A stretch of DNA of 64,000 nucleotides, from NCBI RefSeq assembly GCF_058153355.1, contig NZ_CM177019.1. The stretch is one strand, 5' to 3'. A program made the position numbers and the translations under genes. Positions 4,696 through 13,180 of this stretch are shown in pieces (position 1 is the stretch's first letter; every line of letters starts with the position of its first letter). The notes under the pieces are model-generated. The model was not told the origin of the DNA. It did no database searches and worked only from the letters and a program-made list of their open reading frames with translations.

Positions 4696-6764
<2,069 letters not shown>

Positions 6765-6772
6765 ATAAAACA

Positions 6773-6801
6773 GGAGGCGAAGGTGCCTCCCGTTTTATTT
6801 T
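6773..6801 (+). terminator. Intrinsic terminator of ompR-envZ
   Basis: ggaggcgaaggtgcctcc hairpin followed by cgttttatttt, 9 nt after the envZ stop. Confidence 0.8.
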
Positions 6802-6927
6802 GTGCACTCAGTATCTACTGAATGAATACGGTTTCAGACATCGGCACCATACGAAGTAAAGTGTACTGTAAGCTGATTGCAGGCTAGCGTATCCTGATTA
6901 GTAAAAGCACACTAAAGGAATAGCTTG

Positions 6928-8211
6928 ATGCAACTTACCAACGAAGAACAAGTACAGATTGCTCGTATAAAAGAAAAAATCCCACGCATTGCCGCACTGG
7001 ATCCTGAATGTAAGTTATTCGGTTCTGAAGGTTGGAAATATCAATGGCCGAAGCCTGCCAGCGAGGCGGAAATAGCTTCCTGGGAGAAAAAACATAGCGT
7101 CACTTTGCCACGGGAATATCGAATTTTTCTTCGCTATATCGCTAATGGCGGTCCGGCACATGCCTACGGTCTTGAATCTTTAGGCGGTACAGATATTTAT
7201 GGCGATATAACAAAAGAAAGCCCTGTACCGCTTTATATGACGCAGCAGGATGTTGATGTGTTGAATGCAGGCCGTACAGAAGATGATGAAGAATATAGTT
7301 TTTTTGACGGCGCATTGACCATTCTCACCCTGGGATGTACTTATGATATTTGCCTGGTGGTGACGGGGCAGTATCGCGGAAGGTTAATGCTGACTGATGG
7401 TGATGAAGATTATCCGTTTGATTTTATATATGATAAAAATTTCCTCAACTGGTATGAACGCTGGCTGGACGATTTTATTGCTGGCATGAGTATGAAGGGT
7501 TTCGATAGAAGTTTGCCAGGAACGCAAATTCAACTGCGTGAGTGGTTTTTAACTGAGAAAATCCCGGATTTACGTAGATCCATTTTATTCTCGCTATGCC
7601 GTTTTCCACAGATAGAACCCGAAACATTTGCCCTTTGGGAACATGTTTGCCGCACAGAGAATGATAAAGAATTGTGTGAAGAGGCATTCATAAGATTACG
7701 CCAAAAAAAAGTTTCTTGTGCTGCAGATATTTTTCGACTCTATTTTACAATGCCAGATGAATTACGTGATATTGCTATTAAAGATCTCCGTTTTGCCTGT
7801 AGAGATAGTGTGGTGAATATTGAGGATTATATTCATTCACTGTTAATAATAATGCCTGAACTTGACGATGACACTCTATCCTCAGCTGTCTTTGCTGTAC
7901 GAGAAACAGAGTATAATAAATATGATACTTTTCTGCCGCTTCTCGAACGTATCACTGATGACCGTCAGCAAACATTATTGTGGGCGATGAGTAAGGCGCC
8001 TGATTTCAATGAAAGCCGAGGATTCGTTGAGTTGGTATTACCGCTTTTTGCATCATCAAAGATGGAGAATGTAAGGAAGGCTATTTTGTTGCTCATTGAA
8101 GTTAAAGATAATCGTATTCCACCATTGGTTGATGAAGCTGCAACTCGTTTCCCTGAACTGACCATTTTACGAGAAAACTACTATCTCAGGACGTGGGGAC
8201 ATAAGCCATAA
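6928..8211 (+). CDS. Hypothetical protein with N-terminal SUKH/SMI1-KNR4-like domain and C-terminal alpha-helical (HEAT-like) repeat region; first gene of the AT-rich island
   Basis: Long ORF (427 aa from the ATG; the track starts 3 nt upstream at TTG). RBS aaggaa lies 7 nt upstream of the ATG. Motif SEAEIASWEKKHSVTLPREYRIFLRYIANGG resembles the SMI1/KNR4 (SUKH-1) signature. The C-terminal part, e.g. ENVRKAILLLIEVKDNRIPPLVDEA, looks HEAT-like. Not a K-12 gene that I recognise. Confidence 0.8.
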   Translation: MQLTNEEQVQIARIKEKIPRIAALDPECKLFGSEGWKYQWPKPASEAEIASWEKKHSVTLPREYRIFLRYIANGGPAHAYGLESLGGTDIYGDITKESPVPLYMTQQDVDVLNAGRTEDDEEYSFFDGALTILTLGCTYDICLVVTGQYRGRLMLTDGDEDYPFDFIYDKNFLNWYERWLDDFIAGMSMKGFDRSLPGTQIQLREWFLTEKIPDLRRSILFSLCRFPQIEPETFALWEHVCRTENDKELCEEAFIRLRQKKVSCAADIFRLYFTMPDELRDIAIKDLRFACRDSVVNIEDYIHSLLIIMPELDDDTLSSAVFAVRETEYNKYDTFLPLLERITDDRQQTLLWAMSKAPDFNESRGFVELVLPLFASSKMENVRKAILLLIEVKDNRIPPLVDEAATRFPELTILRENYYLRTWGHKP

Positions 8212-8248
8212 ATTAATGGCTCAGAAATGATCTAACGCGGAGAGAAAT

Positions 8249-8779
8249 ATGATCAGGGAACATATTCAGCAAGCGATAAATAATAGGTTAGCATTTGATG
8301 GCCCATTCAATGTTGTTCCTGAACCTGCAAGCACTGCGTTTGATAGCCGGATCCCGACATTGAAAAACGGTGTCTGGCAGAAGGCCAGCCCTATGTTGCA
8401 GGCGCGTTTTGCACATTGTGGACGTTGGTTAAGCGCTACACATGGAAGCTGGCTAAGTATAAGTGACATGGAAACGCTTTGGCAGGAACACATAGAAGAT
8501 ACGTTTCTTGATGAAATCAAAATGAATGCTGTAGCTTCAAGTGATAATTGGGATAACCATGCCTTGGGACTATTTCGTTCTCATCGCCTGTCACTTTTTG
8601 CCGGTAGTGATTACATTTATGAAATGGTTTTTCTCCTTTGGCTAGATAGTACCGTTGAGCCAGAGGTCTGGGTTTATGACTGCAATGGGGAATCACGTTA
8701 TAAAGATCTTAATGATTACCTGAATGCATATATTAATGATGACGTAAGCGCCTGTGAGCGCTCCTGGCGAGTAGAATGA
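8249..8779 (+). CDS. Hypothetical small soluble Trp-rich protein (island gene 2)
   Basis: 176-aa ORF with GGAGAG RBS 5 nt upstream, 37 bp after gene 1. No TM segment. No family recognised with confidence; the C-terminal VWVYDCNGESRYKDLNDYLNAYIND weakly recalls SUKH-type immunity folds. Confidence 0.75.
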   Translation: MIREHIQQAINNRLAFDGPFNVVPEPASTAFDSRIPTLKNGVWQKASPMLQARFAHCGRWLSATHGSWLSISDMETLWQEHIEDTFLDEIKMNAVASSDNWDNHALGLFRSHRLSLFAGSDYIYEMVFLLWLDSTVEPEVWVYDCNGESRYKDLNDYLNAYINDDVSACERSWRVE

Positions 8780-9402
8780 ATAGCCCCCCTTGCCCCTTTG
8801 ATCCACAAACCGCACATTACCTCGGTACAGTGCAAATCCACTACACCTCAACCACCTTCAACGCTGCCGTTAAGCATTATACCTATCACATTAAAAAGCG
8901 TTTTAAAGGGTTTAAATGGGGAATTGGTACCGCTGGCTTATTGGCTATATTGCCCATGATCCCACAATGGTTGAAACCTTCTCATGACTTTAAACTCAAC
9001 GCAATCAGTACGTTAATTCTTCTATTAATGTTGCCACTCCTCTTATCAATGTTCCTGTTAATCAGCAGAAGAATTAACGATTTTAAGTCAAAAACAAAGC
9101 AAGTTACTTTTACGAAACCCGTGCGTTATGCGTTTTATTTCGAGGGGATTGTTTTTTATGAATCTCATCAGCAGGGCATACTTCGCTGGGAAGATTTTTA
9201 TAGCATTGACTATGAAGAAGATTATTTGTGGCTTTTTCTGCATTTACCGAAGAGTTTTCCCAGAGAAGCGACGAAAGCGTTTTGCGATATTTTCATTCCC
9301 GCCAGCGCGATAAAAGCGCAGCCTGAACTGGATACGTTTTTTCGTGAAACACGCCACTATCTGGATTATCTGTTTGTCCCGTTTAATTCTGACAGAAAAT
9401 AA
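8776..9402 (+). CDS. Hypothetical inner-membrane protein (2 predicted TM helices) with C-terminal soluble domain (island gene 3)
   Basis: 208-aa ORF whose ATG overlaps the gene 2 stop (ATGA). Hydrophobic stretches WGIGTAGLLAILPMIPQWL (aa 48-66) and AISTLILLLMLPLLLSMFLLI (aa 76-96). The C-terminal ~110 aa are possibly YcxB-like/bacterial PH-like (unverified). Confidence 0.75.
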   Translation: MNSPPCPFDPQTAHYLGTVQIHYTSTTFNAAVKHYTYHIKKRFKGFKWGIGTAGLLAILPMIPQWLKPSHDFKLNAISTLILLLMLPLLLSMFLLISRRINDFKSKTKQVTFTKPVRYAFYFEGIVFYESHQQGILRWEDFYSIDYEEDYLWLFLHLPKSFPREATKAFCDIFIPASAIKAQPELDTFFRETRHYLDYLFVPFNSDRK

Positions 9403-9403
9403 A

Positions 9404-9437
9404 AAATCCCCCGTATCTGGTGAAACGGGGGATTTCG
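9404..9437. terminator. Intrinsic terminator shared by island gene 3 (+) and pck (-)
   Basis: aaaaaatcccccgt...acgggggatttcg hairpin with an A-run on one side giving a T-run on the minus strand; sits between the gene 3 stop (9402) and the pck stop (9455). Confidence 0.75.
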
Positions 9438-9454
9438 TCGCTTAACTTATCGGA

Positions 9455-11077
9455 TTACAGTTTTGGACCAGCCGCTACCAGCGCGGCACCCGCAGGGGTG
9501 TCGGTGTATTTATCGAAGTTGTCGATAAACAGTTTCGCCAGAGTTTCGGCTTTTTCCTGCCACTGTTCCGGAGAAGCGTAGGTGTTACGCGGATCGAGGA
9601 TCTTAGTGTCTACGCCCGGCAGTTCAGTCGGGATCGCCAGGTTAAACATCGGCAGAGTGAAGGTTTCTGCGTTATCCAGCGAACCGTTGAGGATAGCGTC
9701 GATAATGGCGCGGGTATCTTTAATGGAGATACGTTTGCCAGTACCGTTCCAGCCGGTGTTAACCAGATATGCCTGCGCACCCGCCGCTTGCATACGTTTC
9801 ACCAGCACTTCTGCGTACTGAGTTGGGTGCAGCGACAGGAACGCCGCGCCGAAGCAAGCGGAGAAGGTTGGCGTCGGTTCGGTGATGCCACGTTCAGTAC
9901 CGGCCAGTTTGGCGGTGAAGCCAGAGAGGAAGTGGTACTGAGTTTGATCGGCAGTCAGGCGAGAAACCGGTGGCAGCACACCAAAGGCGTCTGCGGTCAG
10001 GAAGATAACTTTAGTTGCATGGCCCGCTTTGGAAACCGGTTTAACGATGTTATCGATGTGATAGATCGGATAAGAAACGCGGGTGTTCTCGGTTTTTGAA
10101 CCATCGTCAAAATCGATAGTGCCATCTTCACGTACGGTGACGTTTTCCAGCAGCGCATCGCGACGGATAGCGTTGTAGATTTCAGGTTCCGCTTCTTTCG
10201 ACAGCTTGATGGTTTTCGCGTAGCAGCCGCCTTCGAAGTTAAACACGCCGTCGTCATCCCAGCCGTGCTCGTCATCGCCAATCAGGCGACGTTTCGGGTC
10301 GGTGGAAAGGGTGGTTTTACCGGTGCCGGAAAGACCAAAGAACACCGCAACATCGCCTTTCTCGCCAACGTTGGCGGAGCAGTGCATAGAAGCGATGCCT
10401 TTCAGCGGCAGCAGGTAGTTCATCATTGAGAACATCCCTTTCTTCATTTCGCCGCCGTACCAGGTGCCGCCAATCAGCTGCATACGCTCGGTCAGGTTAA
10501 ACGCCACGAAGTTTTCAGAGTTCAGCCCCTGCTCTTTCCACTGGGGGTTAGTGCATTTTGCGCCGTTCATAACGATAAAGTCAGGTTTAAAACCAGCCAG
10601 CTCTTCATCGCTCGGGCGAATAAACATGTTTTTGACAAAATGCGCCTGCCAGGCCACTTCGGTGATGAAACGGACGGAAAGACGCGTGTCTGGGTTCGCA
10701 CCACAGAAAGCGTCGACAACGAACAGACGTTTACCGGAAAGCTGTTTGGTCACCAGGCCCTTCAGATGCTGCCAGGTTTCCGGAGAGAGAGGTTTGTTGT
10801 CGTTCTTACCTTTGCCTTTATCAGCCCACCAGAAGGTATCGCGAGTGGTATCGTCACGGACGATATATTTATCTTTTGGTGAGCGACCGGTGAATATACC
10901 GGTATCGACGGCAACGGCACCCAGATTAGTTAACACCCCGCGCTCATAACCTGTCAGGCTCGGATCGAGCTCTTCCTGATACAGCAGGTCGTAGCTTGGG
11001 TTGTAAACGATATCATGTACGTCACTGATACCATAAGCCTCGAGTTCTTGCGGGGTCAAACCATTGTTAACGCGCAT
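9455..11077 (-). CDS. pck: Phosphoenolpyruvate carboxykinase (ATP)
   Basis: The track ORF is 563 aa; PckA starts at the internal [30 protein letters not shown] (540 aa). Contains the kinase-1a motif GLSGTGKTT. Confidence 0.95.
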
Positions 11078-11455
11078 TTCACTGCTCCTTAGCCAATATG
11101 TATTGCCTGAATAGTAAAGTCTTTTTGGGGGTGTTAACCGCGACAAGGCTCATAGATTTACGTATCTGGAGAAATTCATATTTGACAAAAAACTCCGTGA
11201 TTCCTGTCACGAAACGGTTGCTATTATCGCAGAAATAGCATTTTAGGTGTGGAAAATGTTCTTAAAAGGTTAAATCTTGGTTTATATGGCGGGAATATTG
11301 TGAGTGGAATCGCATTCCTGAATGAAATTGATGCAAATTCAATCAGTAAAGTATCGATTCACCACGCTAACTTTTTTTGATTATTTTCTGAAAAAAGCAA
11401 AATACTACGGCCCGGATGCGATAATTAACCCACTTTTTGATTCTGGATAACTAAC

Positions 11456-13180
11456 ATGGATAACGTTGAACTTTCACCCGCAACACGCTGGGGGATGATT
11501 GCTACCGGATTACTTCAGGGTCTGGTTTGCTACCTACTGATCGCCTGGCTTGCCGGAAAAAATCTCAGTTGGATTGTTTATGGCGTGCCTGCGACCGTCG
11601 CGTTTTCATCCGTTTTACTCTTCTCCGTGATCTCCTTTAAACAGAAGCGCCTTTGGGGATGGCTGGCGCTGGTGTTTATTGCCACGCTGGGAATGAGCGG
11701 CTGGCTGAAGTGGCAAACTGATGGCATGAACCCCTGGAGAGCTGAAAAGGCGCTTTGGGATTTTGGTTGCTATCTGCTGCTGATGGCAATGTTGTTGCTA
11801 CCGTGGATACAACAAAGCCTTCGCATCCGCAATGACAGTAGCCGCTATCGCTATTTTTACCAGTCAGTATGGCATAACGTACTTATATTACTGGTGATTT
11901 TTCTCGCCAATGGCCTGACGTGGCTGGTGCTATTACTGTGGAGTGAGTTGTTTAAACTTGTTGGCATCACGTTTTTCAAAACGCTCTTTTTTGCAACCGA
12001 CTGGTTTATTTATCTCACGTTAGGTCTGGTTACCACACTGGCGGTGATCCTCGCGCGTACACAGTCACGTTTAATCGACTCTATTCAAAAGTTGTTCACG
12101 TTAATCGCCACTGGGTTGCTGCCGTTAGTATCATTGCTAACCCTGATGTTTATCATCACCCTGCCGTTTACGGGCCTGAGCGCGATTTCTCGCCACATCT
12201 CCGCCGCCGGGTTGCTGTTGACGCTGGCCTTTTTGCAATTGATTTTAATGGCTATTGTCCGCGATCCGCAAAAAGCGTCACTTCCCTGGACGGGGCCGTT
12301 GCGTTGCCTGATTAAAACCGCTCTGCTGGCTGCTCCGCTGTATGTGTTCGTCGCCGCCTGGGCGTTATGGCTGCGGGTCGCTCAGTACGGCTGGACTGTC
12401 GACCGCTTGCAGGGCACGCTGGCGGTGCTGGTGTTACTGGTATGGTCGCTGGGGTATTTTGTCAGTATCGTCTGGCGTAAAGGGCAAACCCCTCTTGTTC
12501 TTCAGGGCAAAGTGAACCTTGCGGTTTCGTTATTGGTGTTGGTAATACTGGTGCTTCTTAATTCGCCGGTGCTGGATAGTATGCGCATTAGTGTGAACAG
12601 TCATATGGCACGTTATCAGAGCGGCAAGAACACGCCAGATCAGGTAAGTCTCTACATGCTCGAACAGAACGGTCGCTATGGACGTGCGGCGCTTGAGTCG
12701 CTGAAAAGCGATGCCGAGTATATGAAAGACCCGAAACGCGCACGGGATCTGCTGATGACGTTAGATGGAGAGCAACATCTTCAGGAACAGGTATCGGAAA
12801 AAGTATTAGCCGAAAATGTGTTAATTGCCCCAGGCTCTGGCAAACCGGATACGGCATTCTGGTCGGCCTTAATCCAGGATCGCTATAACGTGATGACCTG
12901 TATTGAAAAAGACGCCTGCGTACTGGTCGAGCAAGATCTGAATAGTGATGGTCAGGCGGAGCGGATCCTGTTTGCTTTTAATGATGACAGAGTCATTGTC
13001 TATGGCTTTGACCCGGCCAGAAAAGAATGGGACGCGCTTGATATGAGTTTACTTCCGCGCCAAATAACGAAAGAAAAATTACTCGCTGCTGCGAAGGATG
13101 GAAAACTGGGGACGAAGCCTAAAGCATGGTGTGATCTGACGGTAGATGGTGAAACGCTGGAAATAAACCTAAGTAAGTGA
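11456..13180 (+). CDS. yhgE: Inner membrane protein YhgE (multi-pass, unknown function)
   Basis: 574-aa polytopic membrane ORF in the K-12 position between pck and hslO. Confidence 0.85.

What the first reader, a model, noticed from the sequence alone, without database searches (positions are those of the whole stretch)
6802..9403. AT-rich three-gene island inserted between convergent envZ and pck
In the K-12 order as I remember it (b3403 pck, b3404 envZ) the two genes are adjacent and convergent. Here about 2.6 kb separate the envZ terminator from the pck terminator, and it holds three same-strand ORFs that are tightly packed: a 37-bp gap, then a 4-bp ATGA overlap. Hand counts of 60-nt samples give about 30% GC (7801-7860) and 40% GC (8521-8580), against about 67% in an envZ sample (6481-6540). 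This points to horizontal acquisition. None of the three proteins is a K-12 protein I recognise. Small, compositionally foreign, co-transcribed modules in conserved intergenic spots are the typical context for anti-phage defence or toxin/immunity cargo. This is the main candidate for an undescribed system in the window.
Basis: partly seen in the sequence, partly recalled or inferred. Interest (0 to 1): 0.85.

Follow-up and report, generated by a model that had tools for sequence, protein, structure and literature searches.

The report
Orphan toxin-immunity gene island in E. coli
A rare, horizontally acquired three-gene insert between envZ and pck most likely carries spare "antidote" genes against toxins injected by rival bacteria, with no toxin of its own; this kind of locus is already known, although these particular genes have never been studied.

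Summary
Three tightly packed same-strand ORFs (6928-8211, 8249-8779, 8776-9402) lie between convergent envZ and pck. Their GC is 41.5%, the lowest of any 2.6-kb stretch in the window. Only 18 of 5,426 complete E. coli genomes carry the island. About a quarter carry a RelE/NadS toxin-antitoxin pair at the same site, and most of the rest have about 76 bp.

- **ORF1** is a SUKH-1 (SMI1/KNR4) domain fused to HEAT-like repeats.
- **ORF2** matches no sequence family, but its model (pLDDT 90) has the SUKH fold. Its homologues sit directly after Rhs toxins carrying one conserved, uncharacterised ~125-aa C-terminal domain. This holds in seven genera, including 70 E. coli genomes, none of which was seen to carry the island. 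Other homologues lie in Bacteroidales immunity-gene arrays.
- **ORF3** is a divergent YcxB-family membrane protein. It is always the pck-proximal gene at this site in Escherichia and Salmonella, while its upstream partners vary (SUKH, HEAT, CdiI_5).

No known anti-phage defence model matches convincingly. Best reading: a small orphan polyimmunity locus against T6SS/Rhs-type toxins. It is a new member of a known kind. ORF3's role and ORF1's target are unknown. Interest is moderate (0.38).

The parts
6763..6800 (.). envZ terminator hairpin (16-nt arms). It is the last sequence shared with empty-site genomes before the left junction of the insert.
   Evidence: Inverted repeat I1. Terminator scan finds it on both strands. 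The alignment with empty and alternative sites is conserved through the hairpin.
6802..6927 (+). Non-coding leader of the island, with an AAGGA ribosome-binding site 8 nt before the ATG at 6928. No convincing sigma-70 promoter was found.
   Evidence: Sequence read. The promoter scan reports no site in this stretch.
6928..8211 (+). ORF1, 427 aa. It has an N-terminal SUKH-1 (SMI1/KNR4) domain (about aa 44-170, nt ~7054-7434) followed by C-terminal HEAT-like alpha-helical repeats (strongest support aa ~300-412, nt ~7825-8163). It is a predicted toxin-binding immunity-type protein. RefSeq names it WP_032185310.1, 'SMI1/KNR4 family protein'.
   Evidence: Pfam SMI1_KNR4 2.7e-6 and SUKH_6 3.4e-5. The family profile matches HEAT-derived alphaRep proteins at 3e-16, and HEAT_2 is recorded in homologues. 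RefSeq annotation. dN/dS 0.15 against E. albertii.
8249..8779 (+). ORF2, 176 aa. It has the SUKH fold but belongs to no sequence-defined family. It is an orphan homologue (about 45-57% identity) of the cognate immunity protein of one Rhs C-terminal toxin family. RefSeq: WP_000617564.1, hypothetical.
8776..9402 (+). ORF3, 208 aa, a divergent YcxB-family inner-membrane protein. It has a conserved cytoplasmic N-terminal segment, two hydrophobic helices (aa ~48-67 and 76-97; nt ~8917-8976 and 9001-9066) and a C-terminal beta-rich domain (aa ~112-200). It is the conserved pck-proximal 'anchor' gene of this site across Enterobacteriaceae. RefSeq: WP_001087953.1, hypothetical.
   Evidence: AF2 model pLDDT 74. 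All top-50 Foldseek AFDB50 hits are YcxB-like, including the 98%-identical A0A1Q6B7U4 'YcxB family protein'. Pfam YcxB scores only E 1.9 here and 0.022 in a Salmonella relative. Only 15 representatives were found in 1.84 billion proteins. Contexts. Hydropathy.
9404..9435 (.). Hairpin terminator (14-nt arms) between ORF3 and the pck stop codon. It travels with ORF3: strain A30 has the same right junction.
   Evidence: Inverted repeat I3. Alignment of right junctions.

Best explanation
The insert is a small, horizontally exchanged orphan immunity island: a short 'polyimmunity' locus with no toxin gene. ORF1 (SUKH-1 + HEAT repeats) and ORF2 (SUKH fold) are cytoplasmic binding proteins.

Shown:
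- ORF2 belongs to the family of proteins encoded directly after Rhs effectors that carry one particular ~125-aa C-terminal toxin domain. About 1.3% of E. coli strains carry that toxin next to VgrG/DcrB genes.
- Genomes with the island were not seen to carry the toxin.

Inferred:
- When a neighbouring cell injects that Rhs toxin, or a related one, through a type VI secretion system, ORF2 binds it and blocks it. The carrier strain therefore survives contact with armed competitors.
- ORF1 does the same for a different, unidentified toxin.

Speculative:
- ORF3, a YcxB-family inner-membrane hairpin protein with cytoplasmic domains, is the conserved resident of the site. It may be a membrane-located immunity or resistance factor that works with a HEAT-repeat partner. 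In relatives it is fused to a HEAT domain in both possible orders.

The three genes are probably co-transcribed. They act as parallel, independent protectors rather than as subunits of one machine.
For: **1. ORF1 domains.** Pfam SMI1_KNR4/SUKH-1 scores 2.7e-6 and SUKH_6 3.4e-5. The C-terminus is HEAT-like. Zhang et al. 2012 list SUKH and HEAT repeats as immunity-protein classes and describe SUKH fused to other immunity domains as 'polyimmunity proteins' (PMC3482391).

**3. ORF2 gene context.**
- A homologue lies 10-20 bp downstream of a full-length Rhs in Pectobacterium parmentieri, P. zantedeschiae, Azovibrio and E. coli M18.
- A homologue lies equally close to orphan or contig-cut Rhs C-termini in Serratia, Lonsdalea, Aggregatibacter and Burkholderia.
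- All of these toxins share one C-terminal family, 53-93% identical after the DPxGL motif.
- In P. parmentieri the locus also has Hcp, VgrG and DcrB upstream.

**4. Polyimmunity arrays elsewhere.** In Bacteroides and Parabacteroides the homologue sits in long same-strand arrays. Members of those arrays hit SMI1_KNR4, SUKH_5/6, Imm11, Imm68, ankyrin, LRR and a tyrosine recombinase.

**5. Orphan status.** The E. coli toxin-immunity pair is in 70 of 5,426 genomes. None of the 67 carriers listed has the island (against 13). No toxin is present in the 64-kb window.

**6. The site is an immunity-cassette site.** Partners of the ORF3 homologue elsewhere are a HEAT protein plus an ORF2-like protein, CdiI_5/DUF6392 cassettes, or a HEAT fusion.

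**7. The genes are maintained.** dN/dS is 0.15-0.43, and all three are intact in all 18 E. coli carriers.

**8. Precedent.** SUKH orphan immunity genes at 30-46% identity to the cognate protein protect against T6SS effectors in Bacteroidales (PMC12247911). Supernumerary SUKH genes were proposed to neutralise non-self toxins (PMC3113570).
Against: - No protection assay exists for any of the three proteins.
- ORF2 is only 54% identical to the E. coli cognate immunity protein. Cross-protection is therefore unproven.
- ORF1 homologues were never found next to a toxin. All four contexts examined are solo genes among housekeeping genes. Not all SUKH proteins are immunity proteins; Syd and Smi1/Knr4 are examples.
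- ORF3 has no link to toxins apart from its neighbours. A Morganella relative is a solo gene, and the YcxB family has no functional literature.
- No recombinase or other mobility gene accompanies the island, unlike many polyimmunity or rAID loci.
- No promoter was identified.
- The 22 of 82 Rhs-matching genomes hidden in each listing were not all seen: 3 of the 70 full-length carriers remain unchecked.
- The carriers could hold a divergent copy of the toxin that megablast would miss.
Confidence: 0.66

Rival explanations
1. The functional unit is a HEAT-repeat + YcxB membrane module. It may or may not be related to toxins, and could instead serve envelope or stress functions. Here the HEAT part would be supplied by the C-terminus of ORF1 and the membrane part by ORF3. 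The SUKH elements (ORF1 N-terminus, ORF2) would be passengers that recombined into this module.
For: - ORF3 is the only gene conserved in every variant of the site.
- A 142-aa HEAT-like protein is its commonest partner.
- It is fused to that protein in both orders: HEAT-YcxB in E. coli A30 and Escherichia sp. E4742, and YcxB-HEAT in Salmonella P0077.
- ORF2 has decayed (an 87-aa remnant) beside an intact ORF3 in one lineage.
- In Salmonella the CdiI_5 cassettes sit exactly at the HEAT|YcxB junction.
Against: - The ORF1 C-terminus is not detectably homologous to the 142-aa HEAT protein (hhalign probability 2%).
- HEAT repeats are themselves a listed immunity class, so this reading may collapse into the main one.
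- Distant YcxB relatives are solo genes with no HEAT partner.
- There is no functional information on YcxB.
Confidence: 0.15
2. A new three-gene anti-phage defence system. SUKH/HEAT proteins would sense a phage component and the membrane protein ORF3 would act as an abortive-infection effector.
For: - It is a small, AT-rich, rare operon in a variable intergenic hot spot that also hosts a toxin-antitoxin pair.
- ORF3 gives a weak hit to the PADLOC PycTM effector model (E 0.0057, 15 bits).
- SUKH domains are versatile binding modules.
Against: - There are no PADLOC hits for ORF1 or ORF2, and no PHROG hits.
- The three genes are not co-conserved as a set.
- ORF2's family is tied to Rhs toxins and immunity arrays, not to defence islands.
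- The PycTM hit covers only the generic hydrophobic region.
- ORF3 has no cyclase or nuclease partner.
Confidence: 0.07
3. A selfish addiction or toxin-antitoxin-like module. ORF3 (membrane protein) or ORF2 would be toxic, and its overlapping neighbour would be the antidote. This would explain persistence at a site that also hosts RelE/NadS.
For: - The ORF2/ORF3 overlap (ATGA) is typical of translationally coupled pairs.
- The pair co-occurs in several diverged variants of the site.
- Small membrane proteins are common toxins.
Against: - ORF3 persists intact without a functional ORF2, and without ORF2 at all. That is incompatible with ORF2 being its antidote.
- ORF2 homologues are immunity proteins for a trans-acting Rhs toxin.
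- There is no similarity to any TA family.
Confidence: 0.05
4. A functionless relic. The island would be the remains of an ancestral polymorphic-toxin locus that is being lost from Enterobacteriaceae, kept only by chance in a few lineages.
For: - The island is very rare (18 of 5,426).
- There are decayed versions: ORF1 is split in some E. albertii, ORF2 is internally deleted in G50, and the HEAT gene is truncated in Salmonella.
- No promoter was detected.
Against: - All three ORFs are intact in all 18 E. coli carriers from varied hosts.
- dN/dS is 0.15-0.43.
- Low dS relative to flanking envZ shows recent transfer between species rather than slow vertical decay.
- No toxin fragments lie in or beside the island.
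Confidence: 0.07

Closest known systems
Polyimmunity loci / supernumerary SUKH immunity genes (Zhang, Iyer & Aravind 2011, PMC3113570; Zhang et al. 2012, PMC3482391)
   Same: - Tandem, same-strand, tightly spaced genes for immunity-type proteins (two SUKH-fold proteins, one of them fused to HEAT repeats).
- No toxin gene lies between them.
- Content differs between strains of one species.
- The proposed role is pre-emptive protection from non-self toxins.
   Different: - There are only three genes; 'extended' loci have four or more.
- No adjacent recombinase.
- The third gene (YcxB-family membrane protein) belongs to no listed immunity family.
- The locus sits at a fixed chromosomal site shared by several genera.
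[quoted passage not shown]
   Same: - Orphan, diverged SUKH-type immunity genes in genomes that lack the cognate effector.
- Identity to the cognate protein is in the same range (54% here against about 30-62% there).
- ORF2 homologues themselves occur in Bacteroides and Parabacteroides arrays with a tyrosine recombinase.
   Different: - No recombinase or mobile element here.
- Far fewer genes.
- The host is E. coli.
- Protection has not been tested.
Cognate Rhs effector-immunity pairs of T6SS vgrG/rhs loci, e.g. E. coli M18 WP_049589778.1 / WP_023155453.1 and Pectobacterium parmentieri CP003415
   Same: ORF2 is a full-length homologue (54-56% identity, same length) of the immunity gene of these pairs.
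   Different: - In the window there is no Rhs, VgrG, DcrB/EagR or toxin domain upstream, so the gene is detached from its effector.
- The toxin domain itself is uncharacterised: no Pfam, NCBIfam or PDB-sequence match.
YcxB family (Pfam PF14317) membrane proteins
   Same: - ORF3 has the family's layout: two hydrophobic helices followed by a beta-rich C-terminal domain.
- Its model matches only YcxB-annotated AlphaFold models.
   Different: - It is too divergent for the Pfam model (E 1.9).
- It has an extra conserved N-terminal segment.
- It forms a tiny enterobacterial subfamily (15 representatives at E up to 0.001) tied to one chromosomal site.
- Relatives are fused to a HEAT domain.

Membership tests
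SUKH superfamily (SMI1/KNR4, Pfam clan of PF09346/PF14568) | Significant match of ORF1 to a SUKH sequence profile | tested here: met
   SMI1_KNR4 i-E 2.7e-6 (aa 44-153) and SUKH_6 3.4e-5. RefSeq names it an SMI1/KNR4 family protein.
SUKH superfamily (SMI1/KNR4, Pfam clan of PF09346/PF14568) | Significant match of ORF2 to a SUKH sequence profile | tested here: not met
   No Pfam hit below E 0.2. None in NCBIfam. Precomputed Pfam is '-' for all 34 homologue clusters.
SUKH superfamily (SMI1/KNR4, Pfam clan of PF09346/PF14568) | ORF2 adopts the SUKH alpha+beta fold | tested here: met
Polymorphic-toxin immunity protein (cognate type) | Gene lies immediately downstream of, and on the same strand as, the toxin-encoding C-terminus of an Rhs/CdiA-type effector | tested here: not met
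   In the window no toxin precedes any of the three genes. The feature is met by ORF2's homologues in seven genera.
Polymorphic-toxin immunity protein (cognate type) | Protein binds and neutralises the toxin | not testable with these tools
   Requires co-expression rescue and binding assays.
Polyimmunity locus (Zhang et al. 2012) | Two or more immunity-type genes in tandem, same orientation, with short intergenic distances | tested here: met
   ORF1 (SUKH+HEAT) and ORF2 (SUKH fold) are separated by a 37-bp gap. ORF3 overlaps ORF2 by 4 bp.
Polyimmunity locus (Zhang et al. 2012) | No toxin genes or toxin cassettes interspersed | tested here: met
   There are no other ORFs of note in 6802-9403. 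tblastn with the Rhs C-terminal domains gives no match in the window.
Polyimmunity locus (Zhang et al. 2012) | Gene content varies between strains of one species | tested here: met
   In E. coli the site is empty, holds RelE/NadS (1,331 genomes), holds the three-gene island (18), holds the HEAT-YcxB fusion (1), or holds HEAT + ORF2-like + YcxB in draft genomes.
Polyimmunity locus (Zhang et al. 2012) | Adjacent recombinase (frequent, not obligatory) and four or more genes for the 'extended' class | tested here: not met
   The neighbours are envZ and pck. There is no integrase or transposase, and only three genes.
YcxB family (PF14317) | Match to the Pfam model above threshold | tested here: not met
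   ORF3 scores E 1.9. The Salmonella relative P0077 scores E 0.022.
YcxB family (PF14317) | Family architecture and fold (two transmembrane helices plus a C-terminal beta-rich domain) | tested here: met
Known anti-phage defence systems (PADLOC-DB 2.0) | Proteins match the models of a catalogued system | tested here: not met
   ORF1 and ORF2 match 0 families. ORF3 gives only PycTM at E 0.0057, 15 bits.
rAID/AID acquired interbacterial defence systems | Orphan immunity array associated with a tyrosine recombinase or mobile element | tested here: not met
   No recombinase lies at the window locus. One is present in the Bacteroidales arrays that hold ORF2 homologues.

The most novel reading that the evidence does not exclude
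The HEAT-repeat protein and the YcxB-family membrane protein may together form a previously unrecognised, site-specific 'immunity dock' of Enterobacteriaceae.

- It would be a membrane-anchored two-part module, found fused in both orders.
- Its internal junction (around the conserved FDPQTAH|YLGTVQ sequence) would serve as the place where SUKH and CdiI-type immunity cassettes are captured and exchanged between species.
- The module may itself protect against membrane- or envelope-acting toxins.

Alongside this, ORF2 and its partner would define a new Rhs toxin-immunity family that circulates in E. coli.
Probability: 0.15. Interest if true: 0.6.

Novelty: new member of a known kind. Interest (0 to 1): 0.38.

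Why it matters
If ORF2 protects against the Rhs toxin carried by about 1.3% of E. coli strains, the island is a clear example in a model organism of 'disarmed' strains acquiring resistance to a neighbour's type VI weapon. Until now this has been documented mainly in gut Bacteroidales.

The work also identifies:
- an uncharacterised Rhs toxin domain and its SUKH-fold immunity family, both missing from the domain libraries searched here (Pfam and NCBIfam for both);
- envZ-pck as a recombination hot spot with interchangeable conflict cargo (a toxin-antitoxin pair or immunity genes);
- a first contextual clue for the function-unknown YcxB family.

None of this overturns current understanding. It extends a known concept to new genes.

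Tried and rejected
- **Family libraries.** PADLOC, NCBIfam and PHROGs scans of the three proteins gave nothing usable.
- **Non-coding RNA.** Rfam on 6600-9600 gave only sub-threshold chance hits.
- **Mobility signatures.** A search for flanking direct or inverted repeats found only the two terminator hairpins and short chance repeats. There is no target-site duplication.
- **Promoter.** The scan found no promoter upstream of ORF1, and site counts were at shuffle level.
- **HEAT-142 against ORF1's C-terminus.** Profile-profile comparison showed no significant relation (probability 2%).
- **ORF1 and ORF2 as paralogues.** BLASTP found no similarity between them.
- **Naming the Rhs C-terminal toxin domain.** Pfam, NCBIfam, PDB sequence profiles and a plasmid tblastn gave no match. 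An HNH/EndoVII-type nuclease is only a guess, based on a 'GH..D' motif and the usual partners of SUKH proteins.
- **Toxin neighbours of ORF1 homologues.** All four contexts were solo genes.
- **Literature.** Searches for YcxB function, for the RefSeq accessions and for an envZ-pck hot spot found nothing relevant.
- **First translation of the Pectobacterium Rhs C-terminus.** It was in the wrong frame and was redone.
Full report

Yes. envZ (5412-6764, +) and pck (stop at 9455, -) are convergent. Between them lie three + strand ORFs:
- ORF1, 6925/6928-8211;
- ORF2, 8249-8779;
- ORF3, 8776-9402.

ORF1 and ORF2 are separated by 37 bp, and ORF2 and ORF3 overlap by ATGA. The whole insert has GC 0.415. 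That is the minimum of all 2.6-kb windows in the 64 kb (mean 0.519, sd 0.023). Hairpin terminators lie at 6763-6800 and 9404-9435.

**2. Occupancy of the site**

Megablast of 6700-9500 against 5,426 complete E. coli genomes finds the flanks in 5,341 genomes but the insert in only 18. It is always chromosomal and always at this site, at 99.0-99.5% identity. Hosts include humans, cattle, pig, goat and dog.

| State of the envZ-pck site in complete E. coli genomes | Genomes |
|---|---|
| Three-gene island | 18 |
| RelE/ParE + NadS toxin-antitoxin pair | 1,331 |
| Single 346-aa gene (strain A30) | 1 |
| About 76 bp between the two stop codons | most of the rest |

RefSeq annotates the three genes as WP_032185310.1 (SMI1/KNR4 family), WP_000617564.1 and WP_001087953.1 (both hypothetical).

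No repeats, integrase or transposase flank the insert. About 35 nt after the envZ hairpin are still alignable with the empty site.

**3. The three proteins**

*ORF1.* It matches Pfam SMI1_KNR4 (SUKH-1, 2.7e-6) and SUKH_6 (3.4e-5) at residues 44-170. A profile of its 18 homologues matches HEAT-derived alphaRep proteins at 3e-16 over positions ~307-418. Several homologues carry a recorded HEAT_2 hit. ORF1 is therefore SUKH-1 plus HEAT-like repeats.

*ORF3.* It has a conserved N-terminal segment, two hydrophobic helices and a beta-rich C-terminal domain. All top-50 Foldseek matches in AFDB50 are YcxB-annotated. The Pfam YcxB model, however, reaches only E 1.9. An exhaustive profile search of 1.84 billion representatives finds only 15 relatives at E up to 0.001.

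**4. What fixes ORF2's role**

A scan of 100,044 species genomes with the ORF2 profile returned 21 loci. ORF calling and motif search place the homologue 10-20 bp downstream of:
- a full-length Rhs protein in Pectobacterium zantedeschiae (1,423 aa) and Azovibrio (1,534 aa), as already seen in P. parmentieri, where Hcp, VgrG and DcrB lie upstream;
- orphan or contig-truncated Rhs C-termini in Serratia rubidaea, Lonsdalea, Aggregatibacter and Burkholderia turbans.

After the DPxGL cleavage motif, all of these toxins carry the same ~125-aa domain. They are 53-93% identical, with motifs IKNKF, HVADWN, GGSMTRQ, PGHTPDVGWGG and VNSYIGGATQA (alignment A8). This domain has no match in Pfam, NCBIfam or PDB sequences.

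The same pair exists in E. coli. In strain M18 the order is VgrG (pseudogene), IS2, DcrB, Rhs (1,503 aa), then a 176-aa 'hypothetical protein' that is 54% identical to window ORF2. The toxin-end/immunity segment is found in full, at 99.9-100% identity in every copy listed, in 70 of 5,426 genomes. None of the 67 carriers I could list has the envZ-pck island (against 13). One island carrier (R32_14_1F) matches only the Rhs core, which means it has a different toxin tip.

In Bacteroides and Parabacteroides the ORF2 homologue lies inside long same-strand arrays. Members of those arrays hit SMI1_KNR4, SUKH_5/6, Imm11, Imm68, ankyrin, LRR and a tyrosine recombinase. That is the signature of polyimmunity/rAID loci.

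ORF2 is therefore an orphan, diverged member of an Rhs-immunity family.

**5. The site is modular and ORF3 is its anchor**

ORF3 homologues (60-94% identical) are always the pck-proximal gene at envZ-pck, but with different partners.

| Source | Genes at the site, envZ side to pck side |
|---|---|
| Window, E. albertii | ORF1, ORF2, ORF3 (in E. albertii followed by the TA pair) |
| Shigella/E. coli drafts, Escherichia sp., metagenomes | 142-aa HEAT-like protein, ORF2-like (66% identity), ORF3-like (60-65%) |
| Salmonella | Truncated HEAT gene, DUF6392/CdiI_5 (170 aa), 91-aa ORF, CdiI_5 fragment, ORF3 |
| 'Enterobacteriaceae G50' | 87-aa internally deleted ORF2 remnant, intact ORF3 |
| E. coli A30, Escherichia sp. 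E4742 | One HEAT-YcxB fusion protein (346 aa) |
| Other Salmonella (P0077) | The reverse fusion, YcxB-HEAT (365 aa) |

In the Salmonella cassette variant the HEAT gene stops seven residues into the YcxB part (FDPQTAH). The YcxB gene there starts with residues borrowed from CdiI_5 (MPFGLKPVMTQ). The cassettes therefore sit exactly at the fusion junction.

ORF1 homologues elsewhere (Klebsiella aerogenes, Superficieibacter, E. coli yoaA-yoaB) are solo genes among housekeeping genes. A distant ORF3 relative in Morganella is also solo.

**6. Selection and transfer**

Nei-Gojobori estimates give dN/dS of 0.15 for ORF1, 0.39 for ORF2 and 0.29-0.43 for ORF3. This is purifying selection, but looser than on envZ (0.01-0.03).

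Synonymous divergence of the island genes is well below that of the adjoining envZ:

| Comparison | dS, island genes | dS, envZ |
|---|---|---|
| Window vs E. albertii | 0.19 (ORF1, ORF2); 0.38 (ORF3) | 0.46 |
| Window vs Salmonella | 0.24 (ORF3) | 0.79 |

This points to recent exchange between species by recombination in the conserved flanks, not to vertical descent.

**7. Interpretation**

The best-supported reading is a short orphan polyimmunity locus. It matches the published description: tandem same-strand immunity genes with tiny gaps, no interspersed toxins, strain-to-strain variability, SUKH as the commonest component, HEAT repeats as a listed immunity class, and SUKH fused to other immunity domains (PMC3482391; PMC3113570). 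It also matches the experimental demonstration that diverged SUKH orphan immunity genes protect against T6SS effectors (PMC12247911).

- **Shown:** domain and fold assignments, the toxin-immunity linkage of ORF2's family, absence of the toxin from carriers, modularity, selection and transfer.
- **Inferred:** that ORF2 still binds the E. coli or other Rhs toxin, that ORF1 neutralises another toxin, and that the genes are co-transcribed.
- **Speculative:** that ORF3 is a membrane-located immunity factor or works with a HEAT partner.

**8. Rivals**

- A HEAT + YcxB functional module with SUKH passengers (0.15) is suggested by the two fusion orders and by ORF3's constancy. ORF1's HEAT region, however, is not detectably related to the 142-aa protein.
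- A new anti-phage system (0.07) rests only on context and a 15-bit PycTM hit.
- A TA-like pair (0.05) is contradicted by ORF3 persisting without ORF2.
- A dead relic (0.07) is contradicted by intactness, dN/dS and recent transfer.

**9. Novelty and verdict**

It is not an undescribed kind of system. It is a new member of the orphan/polyimmunity class.

Three points are genuinely unexplored:
- the SUKH-fold family of ORF2 and its unnamed Rhs toxin domain circulating in E. coli;
- the envZ-pck hot spot with alternative conflict cargo;
- the HEAT/YcxB pairing.

Interest is 0.38.

Noticed in passing
L045 (E. coli M18, NZ_CP010219.1 3813729-3818783); also L013, L025, L026, L029, L038, L039, L040: An Rhs C-terminal toxin domain of about 125 aa (motifs IKNKF, HVADWN, GGSMTRQ, PGHTPDVGWGG, VNSYIGGATQA) is conserved at 53-93% identity across Gamma- and Betaproteobacteria. 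In E. coli the toxin-end/immunity segment was found in full in 70 complete genomes, at 99.9-100% identity in every copy listed. It has no match in Pfam, NCBIfam or PDB sequences, so its activity is unknown.
   Followed up: partly
P0077 (Salmonella, 365 aa) versus L002:4566-5606 (E. coli A30, 346 aa) and P0002: The same two modules, a ~140-aa HEAT-like domain and the YcxB-like membrane protein, are fused in opposite orders in Salmonella (YcxB first) and Escherichia (HEAT first). This suggests they work together.
   Followed up: partly
L008:4348-6618 and L009:4348-6618 (Salmonella enterica): The HEAT gene is cut seven residues into the YcxB part. It is followed by a DUF6392/CdiI_5 gene, a 91-aa ORF with no family match (possibly an orphan toxin tip), and a CdiI_5 fragment whose frame runs into the YcxB gene. 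The cassettes were inserted exactly at the fusion junction.
   Followed up: partly
L010:5734-5997 ('Enterobacteriaceae bacterium G50'): An 87-aa remnant of ORF2 with an internal deletion of about 90 residues lies next to an intact ORF3 homologue. No gene had been called in this 570-bp gap.
   Followed up: yes
L003:1596-2268; 1,331 of 5,426 complete E. coli genomes: The same envZ-pck intergenic site holds a RelE/ParE-NadS type II toxin-antitoxin pair in about a quarter of E. coli. In E. albertii (L007, L023) this pair and the three-gene island sit side by side.
   Followed up: partly
L007:705-3650 and L006 (E. albertii): In some E. albertii strains, fimbrial genes lie upstream of the island where envZ is expected: a PapC usher C-terminus, a 416-aa adhesin-like protein and a 79-aa fragment of it. 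In L006 and L023, ORF1 is split into two ORFs.
   Followed up: no
L020/L021:8001-9275 (E. coli, between the yoaA-like helicase and a RidA-family gene); L018/L019 (Klebsiella aerogenes): Diverged ORF1-type SUKH+HEAT genes (40-57% identity) occur as single inserted genes at other housekeeping intergenic sites. This suggests the architecture spreads as a solo cassette.
   Followed up: no
window 9455-11146 (-): The mechanical ORF for pck runs 563 aa from an upstream TTG. RefSeq annotates 540 aa (1,623 nt) in identical loci, so the true start is probably the internal ATG near 11077.
   Followed up: no
window 11050-11500: A second, short low-GC stretch (0.37-0.39) covers the pck-yhgE divergent intergenic region. 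It appears to be ordinary promoter DNA, not an insert.
   Followed up: no
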